Below are positions 19,700 to 32,778 of a stretch of 34,112 bases of DNA, piece after piece. This stretch comes from an uncultured Methanosarcinales archaeon (lineage in GTDB: Archaea; Nanobdellota; Nanobdellia; Woesearchaeales; GW2011-AR9). Under the pieces are notes generated by a model. It was not told where the DNA came from. It made no database searches and was given only the letters and a program-made list of their open reading frames with translations. The stretch lies in contig CAYRMP010000001.1 of NCBI GenBank assembly GCA_964425545.1, forward strand, positions 1 through 34,112, in the 5' to 3' direction. Numbering within the stretch: the stretch's first letter is position 1; every line of letters begins with the position of its first letter. The translations under genes and the position numbers were made by a program.

Positions 19700-20542
19700 C
19701 TATTCTTTCCCGAACAGCCGTAACTGTTCTTTTATTTTCTCTTCGTTATGGGCAATTAACGGCCTCATTACTAAGAAACTAAAAGGATAACTTTTGTAAT
19801 TCTTTAAAACTTGACCGCTGACTAACACTGTAGCTTTATTTTTAGGAGCTATTTCTTCTATCTCCTGATAATTTCTTACTTTCCTTAATTGCAGGGAAAC
19901 AGGGCTAAATTTCTGCAACAGGGAGATATCTTTATCTCCAACGGCTACTGGAAATATGTTACAACCGCGCTTCATGAATAGTAACCCGGCTAATATGCTT
20001 GTGTCATTTTCTACCAGCAATAAAACATTTCCTTCTACTCCGGCAGGTAACCCCCCAAAACAAGGAACTGTTTCTACAAACAAATATGCTCCTTCTTGAT
20101 TTAGTTCTATTTCTAGAGTGATGTCCGGCTCCCCGTAAGAAAAACGTAAATCTGTTTTCCGTTCGACATGTTCGCCAACCAATCGATTAAATTCGGGAGA
20201 AGTGATGGGGAAGGACTTATCTGAACGTTTTGTAGCTATTCTAAATGTTCCTTTCTTCTCCTTTAATAGTTCTACGGCCTTACTTTGGATATCTTCTGTG
20301 TTTTTCTCCACGCGAACTGCAGGAGAATAGGATATTAGCCCGAAGACCCCGCGCAAAGCAGTATGTTCTTTAAAGTAACCCGTCAGCAGCCTTCCTTGGC
20401 CCCTTATAATCTTGGTCTTTGAATTGCCCCCGGATAAGGCTATTTTACGTATATTATCGACTAATTTGTGCTCAAAGAAGTCTTTATTCTTGCCTTTAAG
20501 AAATATCTCCCCATACCGCAGTAAAATAGTATCATAAGTCAT
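19700..20542 (-). CDS. ThiI-like protein (N-terminal ferredoxin-like + THUMP) with a degenerate, shortened PP-loop domain
   Basis: N-terminus ILLRYGEIFLKGKNKDFF is the ThiI signature, and a THUMP-like region follows. Where ThiI has GGLP.G..G.vl.LlSGGiDSpvAa.lmmkRG, this protein has GGLPAGVEGNVLLLVENDTSILAGLLFMKRG, so SGGxDS is replaced by VENDTS. The domain is about half normal length, yet LVSGQVL and RPLI remnants are collinear with ThiI. Confidence 0.7.
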   Translation of the reverse strand: MTYDTILLRYGEIFLKGKNKDFFEHKLVDNIRKIALSGGNSKTKIIRGQGRLLTGYFKEHTALRGVFGLISYSPAVRVEKNTEDIQSKAVELLKEKKGTFRIATKRSDKSFPITSPEFNRLVGEHVERKTDLRFSYGEPDITLEIELNQEGAYLFVETVPCFGGLPAGVEGNVLLLVENDTSILAGLLFMKRGCNIFPVAVGDKDISLLQKFSPVSLQLRKVRNYQEIEEIAPKNKATVLVSGQVLKNYKSYPFSFLVMRPLIAHNEEKIKEQLRLFGKE

Positions 20543-20660
20543 GGTTATTTTGACGCTAATTTCTTTAAAAACCTTCTCCTTTAACTTTGAAATTAACCCC
20601 TTGATTTCGGGTGGAAGGGAGTTATTTATTTATAAAGGGAATATTTAAATACTCTGAGCC

Positions 20661-20697: not shown

Positions 20698-21258
20698 ATG
20701 GCAAAAAAAACTTCTAAAAAAGAGATAACCATTGTAAATATTGTTATTTCAAGTAGTTTGGAAAAAGATATACCTTTAGAAAAGATGGCTGCTACTCTGC
20801 CAAATACAGAATATAACCCCGAACAATTTCCGGGCTTAGTATTGCGCATTAAAGAACCTAAGACTTCAGCTCTTATTTTCTCTAGTGGAAAGATTGTCTG
20901 CACTGGTGCTAGAACTATGGAACAAGTAGAATTAAGTATCCAAAGTATCATCAAGAGTCTTAAGAAATTAAATATTCACGTTACTATTAAACCAAAAATC
21001 ACTGTCCAAAACATTGTAGCTTCCGGAAGCATCGGCATGGTTTTGAATCTGAACGTGCTGGGTTTAAAGCTGCCCAACACTGAATACGAACCAGAACAGT
21101 TTCCAGGTTTAGTACATAAACTTAAAGGGACTAGTGCTACTTTCCTGCTTTTCAGTAATGGTAAGATTGTCTGTACTGGTACAAAAACCGAACAGGAAGT
21201 AAATGAAGCTACTGATCTGTTGATAGAGCGGCTTAAGAAAGTATTAGAAAAGCCATAA
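20698..21258 (+). CDS. tbp: TATA-box binding protein
   Basis: Two direct repeats each carry LPNTEY(N/E)PEQFPGLV...(F/S)SxGKIVCTG(A/T). I prefer the ATG at 20698 (MAKKTSKK) over the TTG at 20683. Confidence 0.95.
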   Translation: MAKKTSKKEITIVNIVISSSLEKDIPLEKMAATLPNTEYNPEQFPGLVLRIKEPKTSALIFSSGKIVCTGARTMEQVELSIQSIIKSLKKLNIHVTIKPKITVQNIVASGSIGMVLNLNVLGLKLPNTEYEPEQFPGLVHKLKGTSATFLLFSNGKIVCTGTKTEQEVNEATDLLIERLKKVLEKP

Positions 21259-21337: not shown

Positions 21338-23362
21338 ATGGAAGTCGACGAACAAATCAAGACATTTAGAGACTTTATTGAACAAAATTACTATCCACAA
21401 CTGTTAGAGGCGGTTCGTAAAGGAGAATCTTATATCAAACTTGATTTTTCTGAACTAGTTAAATTTAATACGGAAATTGCAGAAGAAGTATTAGAAAATC
21501 CTCAAGACCTTCTTAAAGCTGGTGAAATTGCCATCAAAGAATTTGATCTGCCTAAAAAAGTCAGCAAATTTAATGTCCGGTTTATCAATCTCCCCGAATC
21601 GCAAAAGGTGCTAATTAGTGAAATCAGAAGCAAGCATTTGAACAAACTGCTTTGGGTCGACGGAATAGTTCGTAATAAAACTGATGTCCGGCCTCACGTC
21701 AGCGCTTCTAAATTTGAATGCCCTTCTTGCGGAAATATTCTTACGGTTCTGCAGTTGGATCAAAAGTATAAGGAGCCAACTCGCTGTGGTTGCGGAAGAA
21801 AGGGAAAATTCAAAGAAATTTCTAAAGAGTTGGTTGATGGGCAGGGATTGGTATTGGAAGAAGCTGCAGAAGATTTGGACGGATCACAACCTAAAAGAAT
21901 AAACGTTTTCTTGCGGGACGATCTTGTTTCTCCACTTACTGAAAGAAAAACTAGCCCGGGTTCAAGAATCCAGTTGGTTGGCTGGGCCACTGAAGTGCCT
22001 ATTACCTTACGCACAGGAGGACAATCCACTAAGTACGAACTTATAGTTGAAGCTAATTCTACTGAAGCTCTTCACGACGACAGTATCAGCCTTAACATTA
22101 CTGAAAAAGATATGGAAGAAATCTTGAAAATAGCTAAATCCCCTGATCCGCTTCGTCTTCTGGCGGAAAGCTTAGCCCCCTCTATTTACGGACATGATAA
22201 GATAAAAGAAGCAATAATATTGCAGCTGGCAGGCGGATGTAGGAAAGTCCGTCCGGATGGTGTGGTTACCAGAGGAGATATGCATATGCTTTTAATTGGG
22301 GACCCGGGATCAGGAAAATCACAATTATTGAAAAGAATTTCTCAGATAGCGCCGAAGGCGCGTTTTGTCAGTGGAAAAGGAGCAACCGGTGCAGGATTAA
22401 CCGCATCTGTAGTCAAAGATGAATTTCTTGGCGGCTGGTCTTTAGAGGCAGGAACGTTGGTTTTGGCTAACCGAGGTTTTGCCGTTATTGATGAGATGGA
22501 TAAGATGGGCAAAGAAGATACTTCAGCCTTACACGAAGCCTTAGAGCAGCAGACCATAAGTATTGCTAAAGCCAACATCCAAGCCACCTTGCGCTGCGAA
22601 ACCACTGTTTTGGCCGCAGCAAACCCGAAACACGGCCGTTTTGATCCGTATGATTTAATTGCTAACCAAATCAATCTTCCTCCTACTTTAATAAACAGAT
22701 TTGACCTTATTTTCCCGGTTAAAGACTTGCCTAATCGAGAAAAAGATGAAACTACTGCTTCTTTTATTTTAAATTTTCATCGGGACCCATCAAAGGCGGT
22801 TGCTGAAATATCAACTGAATTGATGCGAAAATATTTTTCTTATGTGCGCTTGAAAATAAATCCTAAAATAAGTGAAGCTGCAATTGAAGAAATTAAAGAA
22901 TATTATGTTTCCATGCGTAACTCTGGAAATGTAGAAGAAGGCGGCGTACGCAGTATTCCCATTACGGCCAGACAGCTGGAAGCGCTTATTCGGTTATCTG
23001 AGGCTTCTGCAAAAATAAGATTAGCAAAAAGCGTCACTAAAAAAGACGCTCAGAAAGCAATTGAACTGGTAAGCCATTGTCTTAATGAAACGGCTAAAGA
23101 TAGTGAAACTGGAAAAATAGATATTGATCGTCTCGGAGGAAGCAAAATAACTGCCACCCAAAGGAATAGTTTCAGTATCATGAAAGAAATCATTGCTGCA
23201 TTGGAAGAGCAGCTTAATACAAAAATGATTCCTGTTGAAAATATAATTGAGGCAGCAAAAGAAAAAAACATTCCTCCGGAAAAAGTAGAAAAGTCTCTTG
23301 AAAAATTGCGCAGATCCGGGGACGTATTTGAACCAAAACGAGGGTTTGTTCAGAGACTTTAA
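21338..23362 (+). CDS. mcm: MCM replicative helicase
   Basis: Zinc finger CPSCGN...CGCG; Walker A LLIGDPGSGKSQLL; Walker B AVIDEMDKM; SALHEALEQQTISIAKA; arginine-finger region NRFDLIF; C-terminal winged helix. The size (674 aa) leaves no room for an intein. Confidence 0.95.
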   Translation: MEVDEQIKTFRDFIEQNYYPQLLEAVRKGESYIKLDFSELVKFNTEIAEEVLENPQDLLKAGEIAIKEFDLPKKVSKFNVRFINLPESQKVLISEIRSKHLNKLLWVDGIVRNKTDVRPHVSASKFECPSCGNILTVLQLDQKYKEPTRCGCGRKGKFKEISKELVDGQGLVLEEAAEDLDGSQPKRINVFLRDDLVSPLTERKTSPGSRIQLVGWATEVPITLRTGGQSTKYELIVEANSTEALHDDSISLNITEKDMEEILKIAKSPDPLRLLAESLAPSIYGHDKIKEAIILQLAGGCRKVRPDGVVTRGDMHMLLIGDPGSGKSQLLKRISQIAPKARFVSGKGATGAGLTASVVKDEFLGGWSLEAGTLVLANRGFAVIDEMDKMGKEDTSALHEALEQQTISIAKANIQATLRCETTVLAAANPKHGRFDPYDLIANQINLPPTLINRFDLIFPVKDLPNREKDETTASFILNFHRDPSKAVAEISTELMRKYFSYVRLKINPKISEAAIEEIKEYYVSMRNSGNVEEGGVRSIPITARQLEALIRLSEASAKIRLAKSVTKKDAQKAIELVSHCLNETAKDSETGKIDIDRLGGSKITATQRNSFSIMKEIIAALEEQLNTKMIPVENIIEAAKEKNIPPEKVEKSLEKLRRSGDVFEPKRGFVQRL

Positions 23363-23469: not shown

Positions 23470-24240
23470 ATGGAATCTGAAAATAAGCCGTTCTTTCGCT
23501 TCCCGGCAGAAAAAGCATCTATTGGTGAATTGGAAGAAGGAGAGTATGTTGAAGAAAAAGAACAGAAACCTAATTATATAATTACTTCTGAAAACAAGAA
23601 AATATTTCGAATTAATGTCATAGCTACTTTGGTTCATAAAGAATTGCGTGGTTCTATTACTTCTATTCTTATAGACGATGGAACTGGAAAAATAATTGTT
23701 CGCATTTTTGAAGAAATGAAATCTGTTTTTAATTTGGAAGTAGGGGACGTAATACAAATCATAGGTAAAGTAAGAACATATAATAATGAAAAATATATTT
23801 TTCCTGAAATAATTAAAAAAACTAATCCGGCCTGGCTCAAAATAAGATTCTTGGAACTGCAAAAATCCAATCTTTTTGTGGGAAAAAAAAAAGAAGATCA
23901 TGAGATTTTACAAAAACTAAAAAAGGAAGGATTGGAGCTTAATGAACTTAATAACAAAGAAAACCAGAAAGAGCCGGTTCCATATAAGTTTTCACAAAAA
24001 AATATAACGCCGGGCGTAGAACTGTTTGAAGTGGTTAGTGAAGAAATAGAAGAAAACGATCCTTTGCTTCCTTTTGAAAAAATATCAAAACTTATAACTC
24101 AACTGGATAAAGGAGAAGGAGTCATGATTGAAGAAATCATAGAAAAATCTCCTTTGGAAAAAACTGAAGAATTAATAGAAAAAATGTTAGAAAATGGGGA
24201 CATCTTTCAAAATACTCCTGGAAGAGTAAGGCTTCTTTGA
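23470..24240 (+). CDS. RPA32/Stn1-like OB-fold protein with a C-terminal winged helix (putative ssDNA-binding/replication accessory factor)
   Basis: The OB core INVIATLVHKELRGSITSILIDDGTGKIIVRIFE...LEVGDVIQIIGKVRTYNNEKYIFPEII follows the RPA32/Stn1 pattern (v.ivG.V......t..lDDgTG.i.v......l..G.yv.v.G.v......i.....i). An acidic/Lys-rich linker follows. The C-terminal IEEIIEKSPL...MLENGDIFQNTPGRVRLL resembles the MCM C-terminal wH (LRRSGDVFEPKRGFVQRL). Confidence 0.5.
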   Translation: MESENKPFFRFPAEKASIGELEEGEYVEEKEQKPNYIITSENKKIFRINVIATLVHKELRGSITSILIDDGTGKIIVRIFEEMKSVFNLEVGDVIQIIGKVRTYNNEKYIFPEIIKKTNPAWLKIRFLELQKSNLFVGKKKEDHEILQKLKKEGLELNELNNKENQKEPVPYKFSQKNITPGVELFEVVSEEIEENDPLLPFEKISKLITQLDKGEGVMIEEIIEKSPLEKTEELIEKMLENGDIFQNTPGRVRLL

Positions 24241-24362: not shown

Positions 24363-25229
24363 TTAAAATATTAAAGGAGTTATGTATACCTCTACTATTC
24401 CGGCCACTAACAAAAAACCAATGCTTATGAGAACAAGATCTAAAACATCAGCCATGATGGAATCGTAACTTAAATCTTTTTTAATTAAAGCCATAGAAAG
24501 TATTCCTCCTGCCAATCCGACGATAAAATAAGCAGTTATTTCTAAAATCCCGTGCAGCATGTACTTAAAAAAACTAAATGCTGCTGTACCTAAATAATTA
24601 GAAACAACAATTAAACCTGCTGAAGATGCTGCAGCAGCTAATTCGTTTTTCATTAGACTGCCGACTGCGGCCGCAATTACTGAAGCGTTCCAAATTAAGA
24701 TAAATAAAGATCCAGTTCCATATAAAAGAGAAAAAATAAGAGAAAAAAATAGTACTTTAAGATTATTTAAAAAAATTTTAACAAAAATATCTGATTTTAC
24801 TGCTTGTCCAGTTATATCATCGTTGATAATGTTTCCGCGAACATAATTATTTACATTTACTATGGCTTTATGCTGTAAATCAAACACAACATCAACTACG
24901 CCGTGAGGTAAAAAAACATAAGAAATTATTAATGCGGCAGTAACTCCTAAAAACATGAATAGTAAGAAAATTATAACTTTAGCGTGTTCTTGTAATAATT
25001 TCCATTCTCCTCCGTAATTTAAATCTAATTCTTCTTCACTTTTGACAGTAACATACATGGTTGGCAATATTGCAATAACAATAAGAAACACTGTTAAAAT
25101 GCCAGAAATCTCTTTGAAAACTAAATAAGATAGAAATAGGGCTATTATAGAATATACAAACCCTGCTATAAACATTTCCCATGGTTTTTTCTTTAATACT
25201 AGAGGGTTAAATATGTATTCAAGAACCAT
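24363..25229 (-). CDS. SpoIIM/DUF95 family integral membrane protein
   Basis: Multi-TM protein. FLNNLKVLFFSLIFSLLYGTGSLFILIWNASVIAAAVG and HGILEITAYFIVGLAGG match the two signature regions of the stage II sporulation protein M family. rc CTTTATATATTTT lies ~27 nt upstream of the ATG. Confidence 0.6.
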   Translation of the reverse strand: MVLEYIFNPLVLKKKPWEMFIAGFVYSIIALFLSYLVFKEISGILTVFLIVIAILPTMYVTVKSEEELDLNYGGEWKLLQEHAKVIIFLLFMFLGVTAALIISYVFLPHGVVDVVFDLQHKAIVNVNNYVRGNIINDDITGQAVKSDIFVKIFLNNLKVLFFSLIFSLLYGTGSLFILIWNASVIAAAVGSLMKNELAAAASSAGLIVVSNYLGTAAFSFFKYMLHGILEITAYFIVGLAGGILSMALIKKDLSYDSIMADVLDLVLISIGFLLVAGIVEVYITPLIF

Positions 25230-25309
25230 TACTCTTTATATTGAAATACAAAATATATAAAGATTCCTATGCAGTCTGAAAAAAATTCTTAATTTTCTTA
25301 TAATAGCAG

Positions 25310-25336
25310 CCCCACCCCTTTATTTCCTTTGGAGAA
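25310..25336 (-). repeat. ORB-like element with G-string (left flank, minus orientation)
   Basis: The reverse complement reads TTCTCCAAAGGAAATAAAGGGGTGGGG. By hand count, 18 of the first 23 positions match the right-flank element at 25980..26005. It is not positioned to act as an SD for any gene. Confidence 0.55.
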
Positions 25337-25427
25337 TTAGATTGTTAAGAAAATGAATGTCATGTTATGAATAAAGTTATATTATTAATAAGAAAATCAA
25401 ATAAAATAGTTTAATCATCTAAAAAAA

Positions 25428-25447
25428 GCGATTTCCTTTAGAACTAT
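25428..25447 (-). repeat. mini-ORB-like element (left flank, minus orientation)
   Basis: The reverse complement reads ATAGTTCTAAAGGAAATCGC. It shares the AAAGGAAAT core with the 25310..25336 element but has no G-string. Confidence 0.35.
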
Positions 25448-25868
25448 TTTTATTGTCAATTGTTTCTCATCATCTGTTTAGTTTTTGTTAAATGTAATCT
25501 TAATGATAAATTAAAGGTTAAATAATTCATGGTTTATTGATGTTTGTCAAGTTAATTTTCCTTCTTCTCATTTTCTTTTTGTTCTATTTATCTTTTTTAC
25601 ATATTTTTAATAGTTATTTACTAAGTATTTATTTTCTATATTGAAAATAATATAATAATAATAAGAATAAATAAGAATAATAATGAGAATAAAACAAAAC
25701 AGATTATTTAAGATATTAATAAAGAAATTAAAAATTGCATTTAACGATGTATTCATAAAAATGATAAATAAACACAAATAAACAATAACCCAAATATAAA
25801 AGAGAAAATATTTAGGAAAATATTAAAGTAAAATTGTTTTCCAAAGCAAGAGATAATTATTTATACTT

Positions 25869-25891
25869 ATTTCCACTAGCAACATAGGTGA
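25869..25891 (+). repeat. ORB-like element (right flank, plus orientation)
   Basis: ATTTCCACTAGCAACATAGGTGA. By hand count, 16 of 23 positions match TTTTCCATGAGAAACAAAGGGGT at 25980. Confidence 0.4.
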
Positions 25892-25979
25892 TAGAAAATC
25901 TAAGTATAAACCTATATCATCTATCTCCAAATTGTTTATTAACACTCAGCAAAGATCATCACTGTTTACAATTAACTGT

Positions 25980-26005
25980 TTTTCCATGAGAAACAAAGGG
26001 GTCAG
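25980..26005 (+). repeat. ORB-like element with G-string (right flank, plus orientation), abutting the orc1/cdc6 start
   Basis: TTTTCCATGAGAAACAAAGGGGTCAG has a TTCCA...GAAAC core followed by GGGG, as in published ORB architecture. Caveat: the GGGG lies 13-16 nt upstream of the ATG at 26017 and could instead be a distant SD. Confidence 0.5.
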
Positions 26006-26016
26006 AGTAATAAAAT

Positions 26017-27219
26017 ATGGTAGAAATAAAAAATTTTTTTGAAAATTATCTGAAAAAAGAGTCTATTTTCATAGATAAAAGGACCTTAATGCCTTCATAT
26101 ATGCCAGAAGAGATATTATATAGAGAAGAACAACTACAAGAAGTAGCTAATATTCTTGCTCCTATCCTTAGGATGGAAAAACCCTCAAATCTATTTATTT
26201 ACGGAAAAACAGGCACGGGCAAAACTATTTCAATTAAACACATCATTGTTTCTATGAGTAAAGTTGCAGCCCAGAATGCTCTTCCTTTAAAATGCATTTA
26301 CTTAAATTGTAAGTTAAAAAGAGTTGCCGACACAGAATACCGCCTAATTGCCCAATTAATCAAGGAATTTGGGCAGGAAATACCTTCTACCGGTCTTCCT
26401 ACTGATGAAGTATACAATATCTTTTACAAACTTCTTGATCGCGAGAAAAAGATAGTGCTTCTTGTTTTAGACGAAATAGACCAGCTTACTAAGAAAATAG
26501 GTGACGAAATCTTATACAATTTAACCAGGATAAATGTTGAATTACAAAAATCTCAAATATGTTTAGTGGGGATCTCAAATAACCTTGTTTTTACTGAAAA
26601 TCTTGATCCTAGGATTAAAAGCAGTTTATCTGAAGAAGAACTTATCTTTTCGCCTTATAACGCACTTCAAATCCAGGATATCTTGCGGAAAAGAGCAGTC
26701 ACTTCTTTTAAGGAAGGTGTTGTGCAGCCAGGGGTGATTGAAAAATGTGCCGCTTATTCTGCTCGAGATCACGGAGATGCTCGCAGAGCCATAGATCTGC
26801 TGCGAATAGCAGGAGAATTAGCAGAACGAAGCGGTTCACCGTTAGTTGAGATATGTCATCTTGACGAAGCTGAAAAGAAAATAGAATCAGATAAAGTAAT
26901 TAATGCTGCAACCAACCAACCCAAACAATTTCAGTCCGTGTTATATGCAATCTTGCTGATGGGTCCAAAAAAGAAAAATTTCTTTACGGGAGAAATTTAT
27001 GACGTCTACAAAAGCCTGTGCAAGCAAACAAAATTAAATGTTCTTACCCAGCGCCGTGTTTCTGACATAATCGCCGAAATGGATATGCTGGGGATTATCA
27101 ATGCCAAAATAATTTCTAAAGGGCGTTACGGCAGAACCAGAGATATTTCTTTATCCATTGATGAAAATTTAGTCTTAAAATTAAGAACAGTATTAGAAAA
27201 ATCATTACAATTAACTTAA
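26017..27219 (+). CDS. cdc6: Orc1/Cdc6 replication initiator
   Basis: N-terminal SIFIDKRTLMPSYMPEEILYREEQ; Walker A IYGKTGTGKT; Walker B LVLDEIDQL; sensor region GDARRAIDLLR; C-terminal winged helix. Confidence 0.95.
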   Translation: MVEIKNFFENYLKKESIFIDKRTLMPSYMPEEILYREEQLQEVANILAPILRMEKPSNLFIYGKTGTGKTISIKHIIVSMSKVAAQNALPLKCIYLNCKLKRVADTEYRLIAQLIKEFGQEIPSTGLPTDEVYNIFYKLLDREKKIVLLVLDEIDQLTKKIGDEILYNLTRINVELQKSQICLVGISNNLVFTENLDPRIKSSLSEEELIFSPYNALQIQDILRKRAVTSFKEGVVQPGVIEKCAAYSARDHGDARRAIDLLRIAGELAERSGSPLVEICHLDEAEKKIESDKVINAATNQPKQFQSVLYAILLMGPKKKNFFTGEIYDVYKSLCKQTKLNVLTQRRVSDIIAEMDMLGIINAKIISKGRYGRTRDISLSIDENLVLKLRTVLEKSLQLT

Positions 27220-27327
27220 AATCATTCACAAAAGTTAAATGCAATTTACGGGGCCTTAATAGATTACCTATTAATATGGTGCAAATCAGAACTTAAACGA
27301 TTTAATGGATCATAGAATATAAAAAAA

Positions 27328-29100
27328 ATGGAAAACCAACAAAAAATAATAGAAGACTTATTTGAAAAAGGGATATTAGCAAGCAAAGATATCTTAAACA
27401 AACAGGCAGACCTATTTTTAGCAAGCAATTTAGTTGGAAAATTAGAACAAGAAAGAGATTTACTGGTCCTGAATAATGATTATGTCGATATCGTTACTAA
27501 ACAAAAGAGCTTGGTTGATTGGTATGAGATGGATTTTTATCGTGTTCAGGCTGAAAAAGAACGCGACGATGAATTATATCAGGCCCAATTACAAGGTTTT
27601 AAACAGGTTGAATTGCAATTAAATAGTCCTAAAAATAACCCTAATTTTAGCCAAAAACAACAACTTACCAGTTCAGAATCAGAAATAGTCGCGGCTCCAT
27701 CTCCTGGAGAAGAAGAAAATATTTTTGTTTCTCCCTTTGCAACAGTTATCAAACCAACTTTTTCTGAAGCCTCAACTCTTCCAGAATTTTCTCCGGAATC
27801 ACTTCTTTCTTCTCCCGAATTAATTCCCCCCGCCTCATCTCCCTCTTGTGTGGAAATAATCATCTCTTACAAAAATGAAGCCCATAAATATGAAGTAAAA
27901 GATTTTACTCTTTTGTTCGCTTCCCGTTATCGTTTTTTAGAAAGTCTTTTACGGCAAAGGCAGGAGCTGCAAAATACCATGCCTATCAGCAGGATTTTAG
28001 GCAAGAAAGAAAAAGAAAATGTTTCTATCATTGCATTAATTGATGACATCAGCGAAACTAAGAATGGAAATATAATTTTAACTGCCGAGGATCTTACCGG
28101 AAGAATAAAAGTAATTTTTTCTAAAAATAAAAAAGAGTTATACCAAAAAGCAAAAGACCTGGTATTAGATGAGGTAATAGGCATAACTGGAGCTCTGGGA
28201 GACAAAATTATTTTTGGAGATGAGATTACTTGGCCGGATATTCCTGCCAACAACCAGCTTAAGAAAAGTGAGGTAGAAGAATATGCTATTTTTCTTTCCG
28301 ATATTCATATAGGTTCAAAACTTTTTTTAAAAGACGAATTTAACAAATTTTTACGTTGGATTAATGCTGAAGCAGGCAACTCCTCCCAAAAAGAAGCGGC
28401 TAAACTGGTAAAATATATTATTATTGCCGGTGATTTGGTCGATGGCGTAGGTATTTATCCTTCCCAGCAGGAAGAATTAGCTTTTCCCAATATTATGGAC
28501 CAGTATGAAGAATTTTCCAAACTTATTAAAAAAATACCCGCAGACAAACAGATTATAATTTGTCCAGGAAATCACGATGCAGTGCATTTAGCCGAACCGC
28601 AGTCTTCTTTCGATGAAAAATTTGCTCCAGGCTTATTTAAAATTCCAAATGTAACTCTGGTTACCAATCCTTCTTTGGTTAATATAGGAAAAACCAAAAC
28701 CTTTCCTGGTTTTGATGTGCTTTTATATCACGGCTATAGCTTTGATTATTATATAGCCAGCGTAGATTCAATTCGAAATAACGGGGGTTATCATCGTGCA
28801 GATTTAATAATGAAATATTTACTGAAACGCCGCCATCTGGCTCCATCATTCAAATCGACCCCGTATTTCCCGGGCCACAAAGAAGATCCCCTGCTTATAA
28901 AAAAAATACCAGATTTTTTTATCAGCGGGCACATACATTATTCCAATGTAGCTAACTACAAAGGAATCACTACTATTTCCGGCAGCTGCTGGCAAGGAAC
29001 AACAACCTTTCAAGAAAAATTAGGCCACCAGCCAGAGCCCGCCCGCGTTCCGTTAGTAAATCTCAAGACCAGAGAAGTTAAAGTCCTTAAATTCGGATAG
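27328..29100 (+). CDS. polB: DNA polymerase D (II) small subunit DP1
   Basis: Calcineurin-like phosphoesterase motifs FLSDIHIGS, IIAGDLVDG, CPGNHD, LLYHGYS and ISGHIHY. An N-terminal helical domain is followed by a Ser/Pro-rich linker. The gene lies immediately upstream of DP2. Confidence 0.9.
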   Translation: MENQQKIIEDLFEKGILASKDILNKQADLFLASNLVGKLEQERDLLVLNNDYVDIVTKQKSLVDWYEMDFYRVQAEKERDDELYQAQLQGFKQVELQLNSPKNNPNFSQKQQLTSSESEIVAAPSPGEEENIFVSPFATVIKPTFSEASTLPEFSPESLLSSPELIPPASSPSCVEIIISYKNEAHKYEVKDFTLLFASRYRFLESLLRQRQELQNTMPISRILGKKEKENVSIIALIDDISETKNGNIILTAEDLTGRIKVIFSKNKKELYQKAKDLVLDEVIGITGALGDKIIFGDEITWPDIPANNQLKKSEVEEYAIFLSDIHIGSKLFLKDEFNKFLRWINAEAGNSSQKEAAKLVKYIIIAGDLVDGVGIYPSQQEELAFPNIMDQYEEFSKLIKKIPADKQIIICPGNHDAVHLAEPQSSFDEKFAPGLFKIPNVTLVTNPSLVNIGKTKTFPGFDVLLYHGYSFDYYIASVDSIRNNGGYHRADLIMKYLLKRRHLAPSFKSTPYFPGHKEDPLLIKKIPDFFISGHIHYSNVANYKGITTISGSCWQGTTTFQEKLGHQPEPARVPLVNLKTREVKVLKFG

Positions 29101-29187
29101 TTAAAGTAAAAAAAATCAAAAGAAATTTAAAAAAATAAAAAAAAATAAAGATAACAAAATAAGTAAAATAATCAAAACAGAGTTAAG

Positions 29188-32100
29188 ATGAAAGCTTCCC
29201 CGCACATGCAACAATATTTTGATGACCTCGGACGAGGCATCCAGGAAGCCTACGAAATAGCGAAAGCTGCGCGCAAAAAGGGGCTGGATCCAGAAAATGA
29301 AGTATCCATCCCGCTAGCTAAAAATATGGCGGAAAGAGTAGTTGGTTTGATTTCAGTAGTAGCACCGCAAATAACCAATTCTAAAGTTACTGAAAGAATT
29401 ACCGAATTAGAAAAAGAATTTGGTCTTCTCGATTGGAGAGTGGGATTTAAGATTGCCGAAGAAGTCGCCCAGGAAAAACATTGTCAGTTTAAAGACAAAT
29501 TAGAAGCGATGGAAGTGGGGATAAGGGTGGGTTTTGCTTACCTTACTCTGGGGATAGTTTCTGCTCCGTTGGAAGGATTCATCGGCCTGAAAATTAAAAA
29601 AAGAAAAGACGGAAAAGAATATTTTGCTTTACAATACGCAGGGCCAATTAGGGGAGCGGGCGGAACGGCAGCATCTACTTCAGTGATTCTAGCTGACTAT
29701 GTGCGGATTAAAATGGGCTATCATCCCTACGATCCGGATGAAAGAGAAATAAATCGTTTCACTATCGAGATACAAGATTATCATGAAAGAGTCACCAATC
29801 TCCAATATCGGCCTTCCGACGAAGAAATAAAATTTATGGCCGCACATCTTCCGGTCGAAGTTGATGGCGATCCAACAGAAGAAATTGAAGTATCCAATTA
29901 TAAAGATATTCCGCGCATAGAAACCAATTTTATTCGAGGAGGGATGGCTTTAGTTATGGCTGAAGGCCTCTGCCAGAAAGCCCCAAAACTATGGAAGCGC
30001 CTTTCTAAATGGGGAAAAGATTTTGGTTTAGATTGGGGATTCATGAGCGAATTTTTGCAGTTAAAGGAAAAAATCCATGCCCAACATGCCGCCTCTAAAG
30101 ATAAAGAAAAAACAGCAGAAGCTAAAAAAGTTGTCAAAGCCAACAACACTTTTATCATGGATATGGTCGCCGGAAGACCCATCTTAACTTACCCTTTAGG
30201 TGTTGGCGGCCTAAGACTTCGCTATGGACGTACTCGTGTATCTGGGTTTTCTGCTGCAGGGCTGCATCCAGCTACGCTGATGGTGTTGGAAAAATATATT
30301 GCTATAGGAACCCAACTGAAAGTAGAACGCCCTGGAAAAGCAGCCACGGTTACCATTTGCGATACTCTCGATGGGCCCATCGTTCGTCTTAAAGATGGTT
30401 CTGTTTTGAAGCTTAACACCGAAGAAGAAGCCCGGCAAAACAATTCAGAAGTAGATGAGGTGCTTTTTTTGGGAGATATCATGTTTAATTACGGGGATTT
30501 TTCTGAAAACGGACATTACCTTGCTCCAGCAGGATACTGCCCTGAATGGTGGGCGCTGGAACTAGAAAAAGCCCTAAAACAAAAATATGAAAATAAATTA
30601 TCCTCTGCAGCCAAGGAATTGAAAATAGAACTAGAGCGTTTAGAAAAAATCTTATCTTCTCCTTTGTTCGAATTTCCTTCTTTTGAAGAGTCATTGTCTA
30701 TGAGCAGTAATCTTTCCATTCCCCTTCATCCAGAATATACTTTCTATTGGAAATTAGTCAGCGCAGAAGACGTTTTGACATTACTACGGTGGTTGAAACA
30801 GGGTAAAGTTAAGAAAGATGAAAAAGGAATAAAAAAAATAATTGCACCATATTACCAAAACCAGGAAATTCATCACAAAGGGAAAAAAATATTGGAGTTT
30901 CTCGGCGTTCCACACAGCGTCATCAACAAGGAAAATATAATTTTTGAACGGAAAGAATCTTCCGCTCTTGCTATTTGTTTTAACTTTGACGATCAAGCAG
31001 GATTAGAAAAAATAGAATTTTCACTCTCTCAGGAAAATCAGGAAAAAGACGGCTTGGAATTGATTAGTAAAATAAGCCCGATACTTCTTCGCGACAAAGC
31101 AGGAACCTTCATCGGCGCAAGAATGGGAAGACCGGAAAAAGCAAAAATGAGGCATCTTACCGGCAGCCCACAGGTCTTATTTCCGGTTGGCGACGAAGGA
31201 GATCGGCTGCGCAGTTTCCAATCCGCCATGGAAGCAGGTAAAGTGCAAGGTACTTTTCCCACGTTTTTCTGCAATAGCTGCAATAAGGAAATGATTTATC
31301 TCAGCTGTGAGGAATGCGGGAAAGAATGCATTAAAAAATATCATTGTAATTATTGCGGAGCTCTAGAAAAAGAAACTTGCCGCCACGGAAAATCTTTTTC
31401 TTACAAAAATACCGATCTAGACATAAAGTATTATTTTACTAAAGCCAAAGAAAGGTTAGGAGAAAAACTTCATGCTGACCTGATTAAGGGAGTTCGCAGC
31501 ACCACCAATAAAAATCACGTCGTAGAACACCTGGCTAAAGGGATTCTTCGAGCTAAACATGAAATTTATGTGAATAAAGAAGGAGCCACCAGATATGATT
31601 GCACCGAGCTCCCCATCACTCACTTTAAGCCAAAGGAAATCGGCACTTCAATAGGAAAGCTGCAAGAATTAGGATATCTCAAAGATATTCACGATCAAGA
31701 ACTTAGTAATGACAACCAGATCCTTGAACTGAAACCACAAGACATCATTCTTCCAGGATTTGATTCGTTGGATGAATCGGCTCCAAAAGTATTGAAAAGA
31801 GTTTCCCAATTCATCGACGATCTTTTGGTGCGTTTCTATGGATTAAAACCGTTTTATAATATCCAGAAAGAAGAAGAATTGGCCGGACATTTAGTTGTTG
31901 CCCTTGCACCGCACATTTCTGCCGGCCTAGTGGGAAGAATTATTGGTTCTTCCAAAACGCAAGGGTTACTAGCTCATCCTACTTTTCACGCTGGCCTTAG
32001 GCGCGATTGTGATGGTGATGAAGCAGCCGTAATGCTGCTGATGGATGCCCTGCTTAATTTCTCGCGGCAATTTCTACCCAACACCCGCGGATCAACTATG

Positions 32101-32778
32101 GATGCGCCGTTAGTTCTTACGTCTTTCCTTAACCCCACTGAAGTAGATGACCAGGTGCATGGTATAGATGTGGTCTGGAAATATCCCTTAGAAATGTACG
32201 AAGCTTCATTAGGATTAAAAAATCCCTGGGAAGTGCGTTACGGGGCAGAAAAGAAAAAAGTAGAACAGCTTTCAGATTGGTTAGGAACAGAAAAACAATA
32301 TGAGGGTTACGGGTTTACTCACCACGTTGATAATTTCAATAGGGGGATTCAATGTTCGGCCTATAAAATATTACCTTCCATGGAAGAAAAGTTATTTGGG
32401 CAGATGGAGATAGCAAAAAAAGTCCGTGCTGTAGATATGGATGATGTGGCCAAATTAGTTATCCAGAAACATTTCCTGCGTGATATTAAAGGCAATTTGC
32501 GTAAGTTCTCCATGCAGCAATTTCGCTGTGTCAAATGCAACGACAAATACCGCCGGCCGCCACTCATCAACAAATGCGTCACTTGCGGAGGGAGGTTGAT
32601 ATTTACAATCTCTGAAGGTTCGGTGATTAAATATTTAATACCTTCACTTAAGCTTGCAGAAAAATACGACTTTTCCCCGTACCTGAAGCAGACCTTGGAC
32701 CTGCTAAAAGAACAGGTTGACCAAATCTTCGGCAAAGAGAAAGAGAAGCAGGTAGGATTGGGAAGTTTTATGAATTGA
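29188..32778 (+). CDS. polC: DNA polymerase D (II) large subunit DP2
   Basis: 1196 aa with conserved ARMGRPEKAK and RRDCDGDEAAVMLLMD segments. Zinc fingers CNSCN...CEECG...CNYCG and CVKCN...CVTCGG. Collinear across its full length, with no intein-sized insertion. Confidence 0.95.
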   Translation: MKASPHMQQYFDDLGRGIQEAYEIAKAARKKGLDPENEVSIPLAKNMAERVVGLISVVAPQITNSKVTERITELEKEFGLLDWRVGFKIAEEVAQEKHCQFKDKLEAMEVGIRVGFAYLTLGIVSAPLEGFIGLKIKKRKDGKEYFALQYAGPIRGAGGTAASTSVILADYVRIKMGYHPYDPDEREINRFTIEIQDYHERVTNLQYRPSDEEIKFMAAHLPVEVDGDPTEEIEVSNYKDIPRIETNFIRGGMALVMAEGLCQKAPKLWKRLSKWGKDFGLDWGFMSEFLQLKEKIHAQHAASKDKEKTAEAKKVVKANNTFIMDMVAGRPILTYPLGVGGLRLRYGRTRVSGFSAAGLHPATLMVLEKYIAIGTQLKVERPGKAATVTICDTLDGPIVRLKDGSVLKLNTEEEARQNNSEVDEVLFLGDIMFNYGDFSENGHYLAPAGYCPEWWALELEKALKQKYENKLSSAAKELKIELERLEKILSSPLFEFPSFEESLSMSSNLSIPLHPEYTFYWKLVSAEDVLTLLRWLKQGKVKKDEKGIKKIIAPYYQNQEIHHKGKKILEFLGVPHSVINKENIIFERKESSALAICFNFDDQAGLEKIEFSLSQENQEKDGLELISKISPILLRDKAGTFIGARMGRPEKAKMRHLTGSPQVLFPVGDEGDRLRSFQSAMEAGKVQGTFPTFFCNSCNKEMIYLSCEECGKECIKKYHCNYCGALEKETCRHGKSFSYKNTDLDIKYYFTKAKERLGEKLHADLIKGVRSTTNKNHVVEHLAKGILRAKHEIYVNKEGATRYDCTELPITHFKPKEIGTSIGKLQELGYLKDIHDQELSNDNQILELKPQDIILPGFDSLDESAPKVLKRVSQFIDDLLVRFYGLKPFYNIQKEEELAGHLVVALAPHISAGLVGRIIGSSKTQGLLAHPTFHAGLRRDCDGDEAAVMLLMDALLNFSRQFLPNTRGSTMDAPLVLTSFLNPTEVDDQVHGIDVVWKYPLEMYEASLGLKNPWEVRYGAEKKKVEQLSDWLGTEKQYEGYGFTHHVDNFNRGIQCSAYKILPSMEEKLFGQMEIAKKVRAVDMDDVAKLVIQKHFLRDIKGNLRKFSMQQFRCVKCNDKYRRPPLINKCVTCGGRLIFTISEGSVIKYLIPSLKLAEKYDFSPYLKQTLDLLKEQVDQIFGKEKEKQVGLGSFMN

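What the first reader, a model, noticed from the sequence alone, without database searches (positions are those of the whole stretch)
25230..26016. Predicted oriC: inverted ORB-like repeats flanking an AT-rich unwinding core next to orc1/cdc6
This 787-bp spacer is the longest non-coding stretch in the window. On the left flank, in minus orientation, lies TTCTCCAAAGGAAATAAAGGGGTGGGG (rc of 25310..25336). Weaker copies are rc 25428..25447 (GTTCTAAAGGAAAT) and rc ~25459..25475 (GATGAGAAACAA). On the right flank, in plus orientation, lie TTTTCCATGAGAAACAAAGGGGT (25980..26002), ATTTCCACTAGCAACATAGGTGA (25869..25891) and possibly TTTTCCAAAGCAAGAG (~25837). The two best copies match at 18 of 23 positions by hand count. 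They show the published ORB layout of a TTCCA..GAAA core plus a G-string. Between the flanks, the sequence changes from T-rich to A-rich around a short dyad at 25631..25648, as expected for a DUE. In Pyrococcus the origin also sits directly upstream of cdc6-DP1-DP2. The right-hand ORB occupies the region where an orc1/cdc6 promoter would lie, which hints at autoregulation.
Basis: partly seen in the sequence, partly recalled or inferred. Interest (0 to 1): 0.6.

Follow-up and report, generated by a model that had tools for sequence, protein, structure and literature searches.

The report
Replication origin of a DPANN archaeon
The 787-bp gap upstream of the orc1/cdc6 gene has every sequence feature of a classical archaeal chromosome replication origin, here in an uncultivated Woesearchaeota-type (DPANN) archaeon. 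It is an ordinary kind of element in a lineage where none seems to have been described, and it carries a conserved central palindrome that has no known binding protein.

Summary
A 30-nt ORB matrix built only from 80 related Woesearchaeota/Nanoarchaeota loci scores 34.3 bits at 25308-25337 (-) and 31.4 bits at 25979-26008 (+). The best of 3000 random spacers scored 20.2. These two inverted ORBs match the published pan-archaeal ORB consensus at 18/23 and 20/23 positions. They flank the least stable DNA of the whole window (25584-25683). The adjacent gene is an Orc1-1 orthologue followed by PolD DP1-DP2, as in Pyrococcus. In relatives, ORBs are 27 times denser upstream of orc1 than in other non-coding DNA, with the same outward polarity. 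Two weaker sites are real because they are conserved: a mini-ORB at 25430-25444 and ORB-R2 at 25869-25891. It lies between the inverted ORBs in 26 of the 27 related origins that have it, and I found no description of it. Origin firing, Orc1 binding and a genome-wide skew or depth peak could not be tested. Verdict: new member of a known kind, of moderate interest.

The parts
25230..26016 (.). Whole origin spacer (predicted oriC) between the SpoIIM-like gene (-) and orc1/cdc6 (+)
   Evidence: Longest non-coding gap in the window, GC 21%. Holds all the elements listed below. An equivalent spacer of 746-1178 bp is present in close relatives.
25239..25272 (-). Conserved block next to the SpoIIM-like start codon, with a TATA-like TTTATATATTTT on the minus strand. 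Probable promoter of the divergent gene.
   Evidence: Nearly invariant in 6 close relatives. The promoter function is inferred.
25310..25336 (-). ORB-L, the strong distal origin recognition box: TTCTCCAAAGGAAATAAAGGGGTGGGG. Its G-string points away from the DUE.
   Evidence: 34.3 bits. 18/23 matches to the pan-archaeal ORB consensus. A minus-oriented ORB is conserved at the same place in all close relatives.
25430..25444 (-). Mini-ORB GTTCTAAAGGAAATC (core only, no G-string), about 120 nt inside ORB-L
   Evidence: 15.8 bits with the core matrix, p about 0.007 per spacer. Conserved in L001, L081, L083, L084, L085 and L003.
25487..25500 (-). Degenerate left copy (AGATTACATTTAAC) of the 14-mer AAATTGCATTTAAC
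   Evidence: 2 mismatches. Exact left copies occur in L001, L083 and L085 at -104 to -127 from the dyad.
25584..25683 (.). Core of the duplex unwinding element
   Evidence: Least stable 100-mer of the 34-kb window: nearest-neighbour dG -94 kcal/mol, z 4.1, 90% AT.
25445..25836 (.). AT-rich region with mirror-image strand asymmetry. The top strand is T-rich to the left of the dyad and A-rich to the right.
   Evidence: AT skew is -0.37 over 25445-25633 and +0.38 over 25647-25836.
25631..25648 (.). Central palindrome ATTTTCTATATTGAAAAT (family form TTTC-WATATW-GAAA)
   Evidence: Single copy in the window. In related loci there are 27 copies within 1.2 kb upstream of orc1, one in each of 27 loci, against 2 in all the rest of the sampled sequence. 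It lies between a left minus ORB and a right plus ORB in 26 of 27. Invariant in close relatives.
25732..25745 (+). AAATTGCATTTAAC, a non-ORB repeat to the right of the dyad
   Evidence: Exact match. Its 10-nt core TTGCATTTAA, mostly within ATTGCATTTAAC, is found at +81 to +135 from the dyad in L001, L005, L081, L083, L084 and L085.
25869..25891 (+). ORB-R2, a variant ORB: ATTTCCACTAGCAACATAGGTGA. It has GCAAC and GGTGA in place of GAAAC and GGGGT.
   Evidence: 18.5 bits. The variant bases and the 111-nt spacing to ORB-R1 are the same in all 6 close relatives.
25935..25942 (+). Invariant TTTATTAA between ORB-R2 and ORB-R1; candidate TATA box of orc1
   Evidence: Invariant columns in alignment A2. 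The function is inferred; no transcript data were available.
25980..26002 (+). ORB-R1, the strong proximal ORB: TTTTCCATGAGAAACAAAGGGGT. It ends 14 nt before the orc1 ATG.
   Evidence: 31.4 bits. 20/23 matches to the consensus. Conserved in all close relatives.
26017..27219 (+). orc1/cdc6 initiator gene (400 aa), an Orc1-1 orthologue
   Evidence: Pfam Cdc6_C, Cdc6_lid and AAA. NCBIfam orc1/cdc6 subfamily TIGR02928, 398 bits. PDB 2QBY_A E 7e-103 and 2V1U E 9e-94, both solved on ORB DNA.
27234..27247 (-). Third, exact copy of AAATTGCATTTAAC, inverted, 15 nt after the orc1 stop codon
   Evidence: A copy (ATTGCATTTAAC) is at the same position in L081, L082 and L085.
20596..20616 (-). Solitary ORB (TTCCACCCGAAATCAAGGGGT) between the divergent THUMP and TBP genes, 5.4 kb from the origin
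   Evidence: 24.1 bits. Conserved in L081, L083, L084 and L085, and lost in L001. L003, L004 and L068 have an ORB at a similar distance upstream of orc1, on the other strand; in L003 and L068 it lies between or just upstream of the THUMP and TBP matches. The L004 site (538-567, 21.6 bits) was not placed relative to those genes.
21338..23362 (+). MCM helicase gene (context: the presumed client of the origin)
   Evidence: Pfam MCM, MCM_OB and MCM_lid.
23470..24240 (+). RPA32-like OB-fold gene (context)
   Evidence: PDB 8AAS_B, 8OEJ_B and others (chains named RPA32 subunit by the depositors), E 6e-14.
27328..32778 (+). PolD small (DP1, 27328-29100) and large (DP2, 29188-32778) subunit genes (context)
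   Evidence: Pfam. orc1-DP1-DP2 order, or orc1-DP1 where the contig ends first, in nearly all of the 80 relatives.

Best explanation
The spacer 25230-26016 is the chromosomal replication origin (oriC1 type) of an uncultivated Woesearchaeota/Nanoarchaeota (DPANN) archaeon.

Proposed mechanism, all steps inferred from homology unless marked:
1. Monomers of the adjacent Orc1-1-type initiator bind the outward-facing inverted boxes ORB-L (25310-25336, -) and ORB-R1 (25980-26002, +).
2. Accessory sites help: the mini-ORB (25430-25444, -) and the variant ORB-R2 (25869-25891, +).
3. The opposed polarity directs MCM, encoded 3 kb upstream, onto the intervening 90%-AT region.
4. That region melts first around the central palindrome (25631-25648), and forks leave in both directions.
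5. ORB-R1 lies between a candidate TATA box and the orc1 ATG, so bound Orc1 probably also represses its own gene.

What the sequence shows directly: the motifs, their polarity, the low duplex stability, the gene neighbourhood and the conservation across relatives.

What is inferred only: Orc1 binding, MCM loading, melting, firing and autoregulation.
For: - The ORBs score far above chance and match the published consensus (consensus from PMC4153887 Table 2 and PMC1868953).
- Inverted polarity with G-strings distal, flanking the least stable 100-mer in 34 kb and a T-to-A skew switch.
- The adjacent initiator is the closest relative of the two Orc1 proteins crystallised on ORB DNA. Its ISM motif (TGL), helix-turn-helix (QRRVS) and wing (GRYGRT) are invariant in 17 homologues (residue roles from PMC3089459).
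- In related loci, hits of 18 bits or more are 2.4 per kb within 1.2 kb upstream of orc1 against 0.034 per kb elsewhere, and 4.6 per kb against 0.17 per kb in other non-coding DNA.
- Plus-oriented ORBs cluster at -70 to -170 from the orc1 ATG, and minus-oriented ORBs at -200 to -1100.
- All four ORB-type sites are conserved in position in genus-level relatives, while the DNA between them is barely alignable.
- The arrangement minus ORB, palindrome, plus ORB recurs in 26 of 27 loci. Some are compact versions with about 115 bp between the starts of the two ORB windows, similar in size to the 130-bp Sulfolobus ORB3-DUE-ORB2 core (PMC12141716).
- orc1-DP1-DP2 synteny as at the experimentally mapped Pyrococcus oriC (PMC1904270, PMC4010727).
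- The spacer holds no Rfam match, no tRNA, no plausible ORF and no conserved RNA structure.
Against: - There is no functional evidence of any kind.
- Contig depths from four groundwater metagenomes are flat and noisy and cannot give a marker-frequency profile.
- No RNA runs hold the locus.
- The cumulative GC-skew minimum of the window is at about 20.5 kb, not 25.6 kb, and it follows gene orientation.
- In the 6 kb to the left of 49 related origins, third-position GC skew differs between gene orientations in the sense opposite to the usual leading-strand G excess. This is confounded by shared genes.
- Some archaea with a perfect ORB origin replicate without using it, for example Thermococcus kodakarensis (PMC5663688).
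- The distance between the strong ORBs, 643 bp, is much larger than in characterised origins.
Confidence: 0.85

Rival explanations
1. The ORB sites are operators through which Orc1 controls its own gene and perhaps TBP. The spacer is not used, or is rarely used, as a start site. Replication would begin elsewhere or by recombination-dependent initiation.
For: ORB-R1 abuts the orc1 start. In 25 of 80 relatives an inverted ORB-like site fills the TATA-to-ATG interval of orc1. A solitary conserved ORB sits between the THUMP and TBP promoters. T. kodakarensis grows without Cdc6 or its origin (PMC5663688). Local skew gives no support for firing.
Against: An operator role does not explain several features: the distal inverted ORB 640 bp away, the mini-ORB, the extreme AT content and mirror asymmetry, or the single-copy central palindrome conserved between the ORBs in 26 of 27 loci. 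The layout is that of origins shown to fire in Pyrococcus, Sulfolobus and Aeropyrum (PMC4010727, PMC12141716). Regulation and origin function are not exclusive.
Confidence: 0.08
2. The orc1 gene plus ORB cluster is a captured plasmid or viral replicon, or a secondary origin, rather than the ancestral chromosomal origin.
For: Archaeal replicator-initiator pairs are known to spread by integration of extrachromosomal elements (PMC4010727). The rest of the genome could not be inspected for further orc1 genes.
Against: The initiator is an Orc1-1/oriC1-type orthologue. The locus is embedded in core genes (TBP, MCM, RPA32-like, PolD). The orc1-DP1-DP2 order is kept in nearly all of the 80 relatives, whose Orc1 identity goes down to 55%. 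No integrase or other mobile-element family was among the Pfam matches of the 18 larger window ORFs scanned.
Confidence: 0.04
3. It is an ordinary AT-rich divergent promoter region in which ORB-like words occur by chance.
For: AT-rich spacers contain many short inverted repeats. The repeat finder lists 49 pairs here, most of them meaningless.
Against: Scores of 31-34 bits against a maximum of 20.2 in 3000 random spacers. 27-fold enrichment over other non-coding DNA. Position and polarity are conserved across relatives.
Confidence: 0.01

Closest known systems
Pyrococcus abyssi/furiosus oriC (Thermococcales)
   Same: The origin lies directly upstream of cdc6/orc1, followed by PolD dp1 and dp2. 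Two long ORBs form an inverted repeat around AT-rich DNA, with additional mini-ORBs. The TTCC and GAA cores are shared (PMC1904270, PMC4010727).
   Different: Pyrococcus has a second ORB/mini-ORB cluster inside dp1 that Cdc6 binds. Here dp1 has only weak, unconserved matches. Instead there is one conserved solitary ORB 5.4 kb upstream at the TBP promoter. The Pyrococcus origin is experimentally mapped; this one is not. Whether Pyrococcus has a counterpart of the central palindrome was not checked.
Sulfolobus oriC1 (ORB3-DUE/ucm-ORB2, Orc1-1)
   Same: Inverted ORBs of defined polarity flank an AT-rich DUE that has a conserved non-ORB motif at its midpoint. The initiator gene is adjacent. The window's Orc1 is the closest match to Orc1-1 (2QBY_A, E 7e-103). 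Compact relatives have a core with about 115 bp between the starts of the two ORB windows, against 130 bp in Sulfolobus (PMC12141716).
   Different: The central motif has a different sequence (palindrome TTTC-WATATW-GAAA against ucm ATTATACAAAC), and the ucm is absent from the spacer. The palindrome is origin-specific in the sampled DNA, whereas UBP/ucm sites number over 300 per genome. UBP is reported only in Sulfolobales and Desulfurococcales. In this window the ORBs are 643 bp apart.
Aeropyrum pernix ori1 (ORC1-ORB4 structure, PDB 2V1U)
   Same: The initiator is strongly related (E 9e-94), with its wing (GRYG.T) and helix-turn-helix motif conserved. From memory only, the ORB crystallised in 2V1U is about 22 bp with a TCCA...GGAAA...GGGGT layout like ORB-L; I did not check that sequence against any tool or paper here.
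   Different: From memory only, A. pernix ori1 has four ORBs in two pairs around direct AT-rich repeats. Here there is one strong and one weak site on each side, around a palindrome.
ORB pairs predicted in Methanomassiliicoccales and the pan-archaeal ORB consensus (Pelve et al., quoted in PMC4153887)
   Same: Same motif, including the spacer before the G-string that is one nucleotide shorter. Pairs are inverted next to orc1/cdc6.1. Isolated ORBs elsewhere in the genome are also reported there.
   Different: Different lineage. Those origins have 39-256 bp spacings, and no central palindrome is described.

Membership tests
Archaeal oriC1-type origin (ORB-DUE-ORB next to orc1/cdc6) | Lies next to an orc1/cdc6 initiator gene of the Orc1-1 clade | tested here: met
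   orc1 at 26017-27219. Pfam and NCBIfam. Best PDB matches are Orc1-1 (2QBY_A, 7e-103) and A. pernix ORC1 (2V1U, 9e-94), against Orc1-3 at 4e-42.
Archaeal oriC1-type origin (ORB-DUE-ORB next to orc1/cdc6) | Two or more ORB elements matching the ORB consensus (TTCC...GAA core plus G-string) | tested here: met
   ORB-L 18/23 and ORB-R1 20/23 matches to CTTCCAGTGGAAACGAAAGGGGT. 34.3 and 31.4 bits against a null maximum of 20.2.
Archaeal oriC1-type origin (ORB-DUE-ORB next to orc1/cdc6) | ORBs in inverted orientation flanking an AT-rich, easily melted region | tested here: met
   Minus-strand sites on the left and plus-strand sites on the right. Least stable 100-mer of the window at 25584-25683, 90% AT.
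Archaeal oriC1-type origin (ORB-DUE-ORB next to orc1/cdc6) | The motif cluster is specific to the locus and not a general feature of spacers | tested here: met
   One further strong hit in 34 kb. 4.6 per kb against 0.17 per kb in other non-coding DNA and 0.04 per kb in coding DNA, in 85 loci.
Archaeal oriC1-type origin (ORB-DUE-ORB next to orc1/cdc6) | Organisation conserved in related genomes | tested here: met
Archaeal oriC1-type origin (ORB-DUE-ORB next to orc1/cdc6) | Specific binding of the initiator to the ORBs (EMSA, footprint, ChIP) | not testable with these tools
   Only the conservation of the DNA-contact motifs of Orc1 could be shown.
Archaeal oriC1-type origin (ORB-DUE-ORB next to orc1/cdc6) | Replication starts there in vivo (marker frequency, 2D gels, RIP mapping, ARS activity) | not testable with these tools
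   Only assembler word depths of short metagenome contigs over 12 kb were available; they are uninformative.
Archaeal oriC1-type origin (ORB-DUE-ORB next to orc1/cdc6) | Compositional skew or gene-orientation switch at the locus | tested here: inconclusive
   The window's cumulative GC-skew minimum is at about 20.5 kb, 5 kb away. Across 49 loci, 60% of the coding bases to the left are on the minus strand, the nearest upstream gene is divergent in 39 of 49, and GC skew on the left is below that on the right in 40 of 49, but this is confounded by orc1-DP1-DP2. The third-position test has the opposite sign. Whole contigs could not be fetched.
Sulfolobales ucm/UBP origin element | Sequence matches the 11-bp ucm (ATTATACAAAC) | tested here: not met
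   No match with up to 1 mismatch inside the spacer.
Sulfolobales ucm/UBP origin element | A conserved non-ORB motif midway between the inverted ORBs, inside the DUE | tested here: met
   The palindrome lies between a minus ORB and a plus ORB in 26 of 27 loci. This is a likeness of position only.
Sulfolobales ucm/UBP origin element | The motif also occurs at hundreds of other chromosomal sites (nucleoid-protein behaviour) | tested here: not met
   27 copies in origin spacers against 2 in all the rest of the sampled DNA.
Sulfolobales ucm/UBP origin element | A UBP homologue is encoded in the genome | not tested
   No UBP sequence was at hand, and only 34 kb of the genome is available. The authors report UBP only in Sulfolobales and Desulfurococcales (PMC12141716).

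The most novel reading that the evidence does not exclude
The single-copy central palindrome TTTC-WATATW-GAAA is a dedicated origin element of Woesearchaeota. Either it is bound by a factor not yet identified, making it a functional analogue of the Sulfolobus ucm-UBP pair that helps MCM load or leave, or Orc1 binds it in a second mode. The second option is suggested because the palindrome has the TTTC...GAAA ends of an ORB core with a 6-nt all-AT spacer. In this genus the thrice-repeated ATTGCATTTAAC element, two copies around the dyad and one just after orc1, would mark a second unknown origin-associated binding protein.
Probability: 0.3. Interest if true: 0.6.

Novelty: new member of a known kind. 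Interest (0 to 1): 0.4.

Why it matters
DPANN archaea are uncultivated, tiny-genome symbionts. Full-text searches of the held paper library found no description of their replication origins.

- A sequence-defined oriC with a lineage-specific ORB matrix gives an anchor for growth-rate estimates from metagenome read depth (peak-to-trough ratio).
- It gives a fixed start point for orienting genomes and a candidate replicator for future genetic tools.
- It explains a practical nuisance: 16 of 80 related contigs end within 400 bp upstream of orc1, against 2.3 expected, so assemblies tend to break at the origin.
- The conserved central palindrome bears on a question the Sulfolobus ucm/UBP authors left open, namely whether other archaeal lineages have an equivalent mid-DUE element (PMC12141716).
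- Many relatives have a very clear TATA-plus-ORB operator in front of orc1, which makes initiator autoregulation directly testable.

Tried and rejected
- **Non-coding RNA in the spacer.** No Rfam family and no tRNA in the window. The conserved 170-nt block from ORB-R2 to ORB-R1 has no consensus structure: -3 kcal/mol and no compensatory pairs.
- **Small protein genes.** Only low-complexity ORFs of 56 aa or less.
- **Exact-protein look-up of the window's Orc1.** Not on record.
- **RNA-seq evidence for the orc1 start.** No RNA runs listed.
- **Read depth.** The second gave only assembler depths of short contigs, useless for marker frequency.
- **Local skew.** The window profile, the flank comparison over 49 loci and the third-codon-position test are all dominated by gene orientation and shared genes. 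The last has the sign opposite to expectation. I treat all three as inconclusive.
- **Pyrococcus-like ORB cluster inside dp1.** Only 11-15-bit matches in 3 of 6 relatives; rejected.
- **Strong 'far' ORB hits 2-3 kb upstream in distant relatives (L072-L079).** In the two loci I checked, L073 and L078, they lie inside a 232-235-aa ORF. They share a flanking sequence across these loci, so they are probably coding-sequence look-alikes.
- **Sulfolobus ucm sequence.** Absent from the spacer.
- **Thermococcales dif site** (11-bp arms with a 6-bp spacer, PMC4640148) as an alternative identity for the palindrome. The arm and spacer layout does not fit.
rc 25459-25475 and 25837 are rejected.
- **Literature.** No papers on ORBs in Woesearchaeota or Nanoarchaeota, or on the palindrome sequence.
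Full report
**Observation.** The gap 25230-26016 (787 bp, 21% GC) is the longest non-coding stretch in the window; the next is 361 bp. The repeat finder independently returns the pair 25314-25336 / 25980-26002 as its top inverted repeat: 23 nt, 78% complementary, which is 18/23. A degenerate ORB pattern with up to 3 mismatches hits three times in 34 kb against 0.05 expected.

**Context and organism.** The flanking genes, in order, are:
- THUMP/ThiI-like (19700-20542, -)
- TBP (20698-21258)
- MCM (21338-23362)
- an RPA32-like OB-fold protein (23470-24240)
- a SpoIIM-like membrane protein (24363-25229, -)
- the spacer
- Orc1/Cdc6 (26017-27219)
- PolD DP1 (27328-29100) and DP2 (29188-32778)

The rest of the window holds ordinary archaeal housekeeping genes such as aRF1, RNase P p30 and ThiF. 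Orc1 homologues with 75-98% identity come from MAGs (metagenome-assembled genomes) labelled Woesearchaeota or Nanoarchaeota, that is DPANN archaea. A few TPA records carry a 'Methanosarcinales' label that looks like a placeholder. The sequence occurs in groundwater metagenomes.

**An independent ORB model.** I fetched 80 related loci from GTDB species representatives and five closer relatives, with Orc1 90-93% identical. Unbiased 8-mer counting in the 1 kb upstream of orc1 already brought out TCCATAGG, TAGGAAAT, AAGGGGTG and CTATATAG. A 30-nt matrix trained on the relatives only, with the window excluded, has the consensus aaTTTCCAyArGAAAt.AAGG(g/t)GT.

Scanning the window with it gives:

| Site | Strand | Bits |
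|---|---|---|
| 25308-25337 | - | 34.3 |
| 25979-26008 | + | 31.4 |
| 25868-25897 | + | 18.5 |
| 20590-20619 | - | 24.1 |

Nothing else exceeds 14 bits. Three thousand first-order Markov versions of the spacer never exceeded 20.2 bits. Against the published pan-archaeal ORB consensus CTTCCAGTGGAAACGAAAGGGGT (quoted in PMC4153887, Table 2), ORB-L matches 18/23 and ORB-R1 20/23 positions.

**The motif is not a property of AT-rich spacers.** In the related loci, sites of 18 bits or more occur at 4.6 per kb in orc1-upstream spacers. The rate is 0.17 per kb in other non-coding DNA and 0.04 per kb in coding DNA. Plus-oriented sites cluster 70-170 nt upstream of the orc1 ATG, and minus-oriented sites 200-1100 nt upstream. 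The outward-facing inverted arrangement is therefore a property of the lineage.

**Fine structure in the genus.** The spacers of the window and five close relatives align poorly overall (56% mean column identity). A few blocks are nearly invariant:
- the promoter region of the divergent SpoIIM-like gene
- ORB-L
- a mini-ORB GTTCTAAAGGAAAT about 120 nt further in
- the central palindrome
- a 12-mer, ATTGCATTTAAC
- a 150-nt block containing ORB-R2 and ORB-R1

ORB-R2 keeps the same departures from consensus (GCAAC, GGTGA) in all six sequences and is always exactly 111 nt from ORB-R1. The other two are not: rc 25459-25475 scores -15 bits and 25837 scores 6.6 bits, and neither is conserved.

**The unwinding region and the palindrome.** The least stable 100-mer of the entire window is 25584-25683 (z 4.1, 90% AT). 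The top strand is T-rich on the left (AT skew -0.37) and A-rich on the right (+0.38) of the dyad at 25631-25648. That dyad is not an accident. The form TTC-N-ATAT-N-GAA occurs once in each of 27 related origins, which is 27 copies within 1.2 kb upstream of orc1, against 2 copies in all the rest of the sampled sequence. In 26 of the 27 it lies between a left minus ORB and a right plus ORB. Some relatives have a compact version, for example L052 and L048, with about 115 bp between the starts of the two ORB windows. This compares with the 130-bp ORB3-DUE-ORB2 core of Sulfolobus oriC1 (PMC12141716). The window's genus has a several-fold expanded, indel-rich version.

**Other elements.**
- The 14-mer AAATTGCATTTAAC occurs at 25732-25745 (+). 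It has a degenerate inverted partner at 25487-25500 and an exact inverted copy at 27234-27247, 15 nt after the orc1 stop. The same three positions recur in close relatives only. Its binding protein is unknown.
- An invariant TTTATTAA (25935-25942) is the best TATA candidate for orc1. ORB-R1 would then lie in the promoter-proximal or leader region, which is inference only.
- In 25 of 80 more distant relatives the arrangement is explicit: a TATA box, immediately followed by an inverted ORB-like site that ends 0-15 nt before the ATG. This makes Orc1 autoregulation a credible theme for the lineage.
- The spacer holds no Rfam match, tRNA, credible ORF or conserved RNA structure.

**A solitary ORB.** The 24-bit site at 20596-20616 lies between the divergent THUMP and TBP promoters. 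It is conserved in four of five genus-level relatives. In L003 and L068 an ORB lies in the same gene interval on the other strand. L004 has an ORB at a similar distance, but I did not place it relative to its genes. Pyrococcus also has satellite ORBs bound by Cdc6 outside oriC, in dp1 (PMC1904270). Here dp1 has none worth the name.

**The initiator.** The window's Orc1 is most similar to S. solfataricus Orc1-1 (2QBY_A, E 7e-103) and A. pernix ORC1 (2V1U, E 9e-94), both solved on ORB DNA. Mutagenesis showed that the ISM Gly-Leu and the helix-turn-helix and wing arginines matter for origin binding (PMC3089459). The corresponding motifs here, TGL, QRRVS and GRYGRT, are invariant in 17 homologues.

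**What could not be shown.** Whole contigs cannot be fetched, so the genome-wide skew test was not possible.
- Inside the window, the cumulative GC-skew minimum is about 5 kb to the left of the spacer and tracks gene orientation.
- Flank statistics over 49 loci are compatible with an origin. The upstream gene is divergent in 39 of 49, and 60% of the coding bases on the left are on the minus strand. They are confounded by the conserved orc1-DP1-DP2 block.
- A third-codon-position test gave the opposite sign to the classical leading-strand G excess.
- Contig depths are uninformative and no RNA runs hold the locus.
- Some archaea with perfect ORB origins do not need them (PMC5663688), so actual use in vivo remains open.

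**Mechanism proposed.**
1. Orc1-ATP monomers occupy ORB-L and ORB-R1, helped by the mini-ORB and ORB-R2. Their polarity faces the centre.
2. They recruit MCM hexamers to the intervening DNA.
3. The duplex opens around the palindrome, where stability is lowest.
4. Forks leave in both directions.
5. Orc1 at ORB-R1 damps orc1 transcription.

The sequence shows the motifs, their polarity, the duplex stability, the conservation and the gene context. Every protein-DNA step is inferred from homology.

**Comparison and novelty.** The element meets every sequence-level criterion of the oriC1-type archaeal origin, and I file it there as a new member from a lineage without described origins. Searches of the held paper library found nothing on ORBs in Woesearchaeota or Nanoarchaeota, or on the palindrome. 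The palindrome resembles the Sulfolobus ucm only in position. Its sequence differs and it is origin-specific rather than genome-wide, so it is not a member of that family. Whether it has its own binding protein is the most novel reading left open.

Noticed in passing
window 20596-20616 (-): A solitary full ORB (24 bits) sits between the divergent THUMP and TBP promoters, 5.4 kb from the origin. It is conserved in L081, L083, L084 and L085 and lost in L001. L003 and L068 have an ORB in the same gene interval on the other strand; L004 has one at a similar distance that I did not place relative to its genes. It may be an Orc1 operator for TBP (and MCM) or a satellite site like Pyrococcus ORB3.
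   Followed up: partly
L007, L010-L012, L014-L016, L021, L023, L028, L030, L031, L035, L046, L066, L075: 16 of 80 related contigs end within 400 bp upstream of orc1, against 2.3 expected by chance. Metagenome assemblies tend to break in the origin's AT-rich, indel-prone DUE.
   Followed up: yes
25 of 80 related loci, e.g. L014:225-266, L058, L054, L027: A TATA box is followed directly by an inverted ORB-like site that ends 0-15 nt before the orc1 ATG. This looks like a leaderless promoter fully occupied by an Orc1 site and is a very clean autoregulation layout. It is absent from the window's own genus.
   Followed up: partly
window 25732-25745 (+), 27234-27247 (-), 25487-25500 (-): The exact 14-mer AAATTGCATTTAAC occurs once in the origin and, inverted, 15 nt after the orc1 stop. 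There is also a degenerate copy to the left of the dyad. The same positions recur in close relatives. Its binding protein and role are unknown.
   Followed up: partly
window 25999-26016; L085:6985-7003: In the window and L085, a 40-70-nt segment present in L001, L081, L083 and L084 is missing. In those four it carries a GAGGGG/GGAGG-like Shine-Dalgarno sequence. As a result the GGGGT of ORB-R1 lies 11-14 nt from the ATG and may double as the ribosome-binding site.
   Followed up: no
window 10374-15743 (-): A 1789-aa ORF has no Pfam match. It may be one of the giant orphan proteins common in DPANN genomes.
   Followed up: no
L085:10053-15035: The DP2 gene of this close relative is 1660 aa and carries an intein (Intein_splicing, LAGLIDADG). 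The window's DP2 (1196 aa) has none.
   Followed up: no
L073:3859-3888, L078:4062-4091 and similar sites in L059, L072, L076, L077, L079: Strong ORB-like matches (27-31 bits) share a flanking sequence (GGGGTTCCAAC). In the two loci checked they lie inside a 232-235-aa ORF 2-3 kb upstream of orc1 in distant relatives. They are probably coding-sequence look-alikes, but Orc1 binding is not excluded.
   Followed up: partly
window 25631-25660 in runs X2 and X4: Metagenome contigs show a back-joint with 18 extra letters (GAAAATATGCCTAAAATA) in the centre of the DUE. This suggests strain-level length variation at the palindrome's right flank.
   Followed up: no
window 20303-20332 (+): A 13.8-bit ORB-like match lies inside the THUMP coding sequence, 287 nt from the solitary ORB and facing it. 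It scores 12-20 bits in L081, L083, L084 and L085. Coding constraint may explain its conservation.
   Followed up: no
window 1-34112: The cumulative GC skew is V-shaped with its minimum at about 20.5 kb, at the THUMP/TBP intergenic region. That is 5 kb left of the predicted origin, and the profile follows the change in gene orientation.
   Followed up: partly
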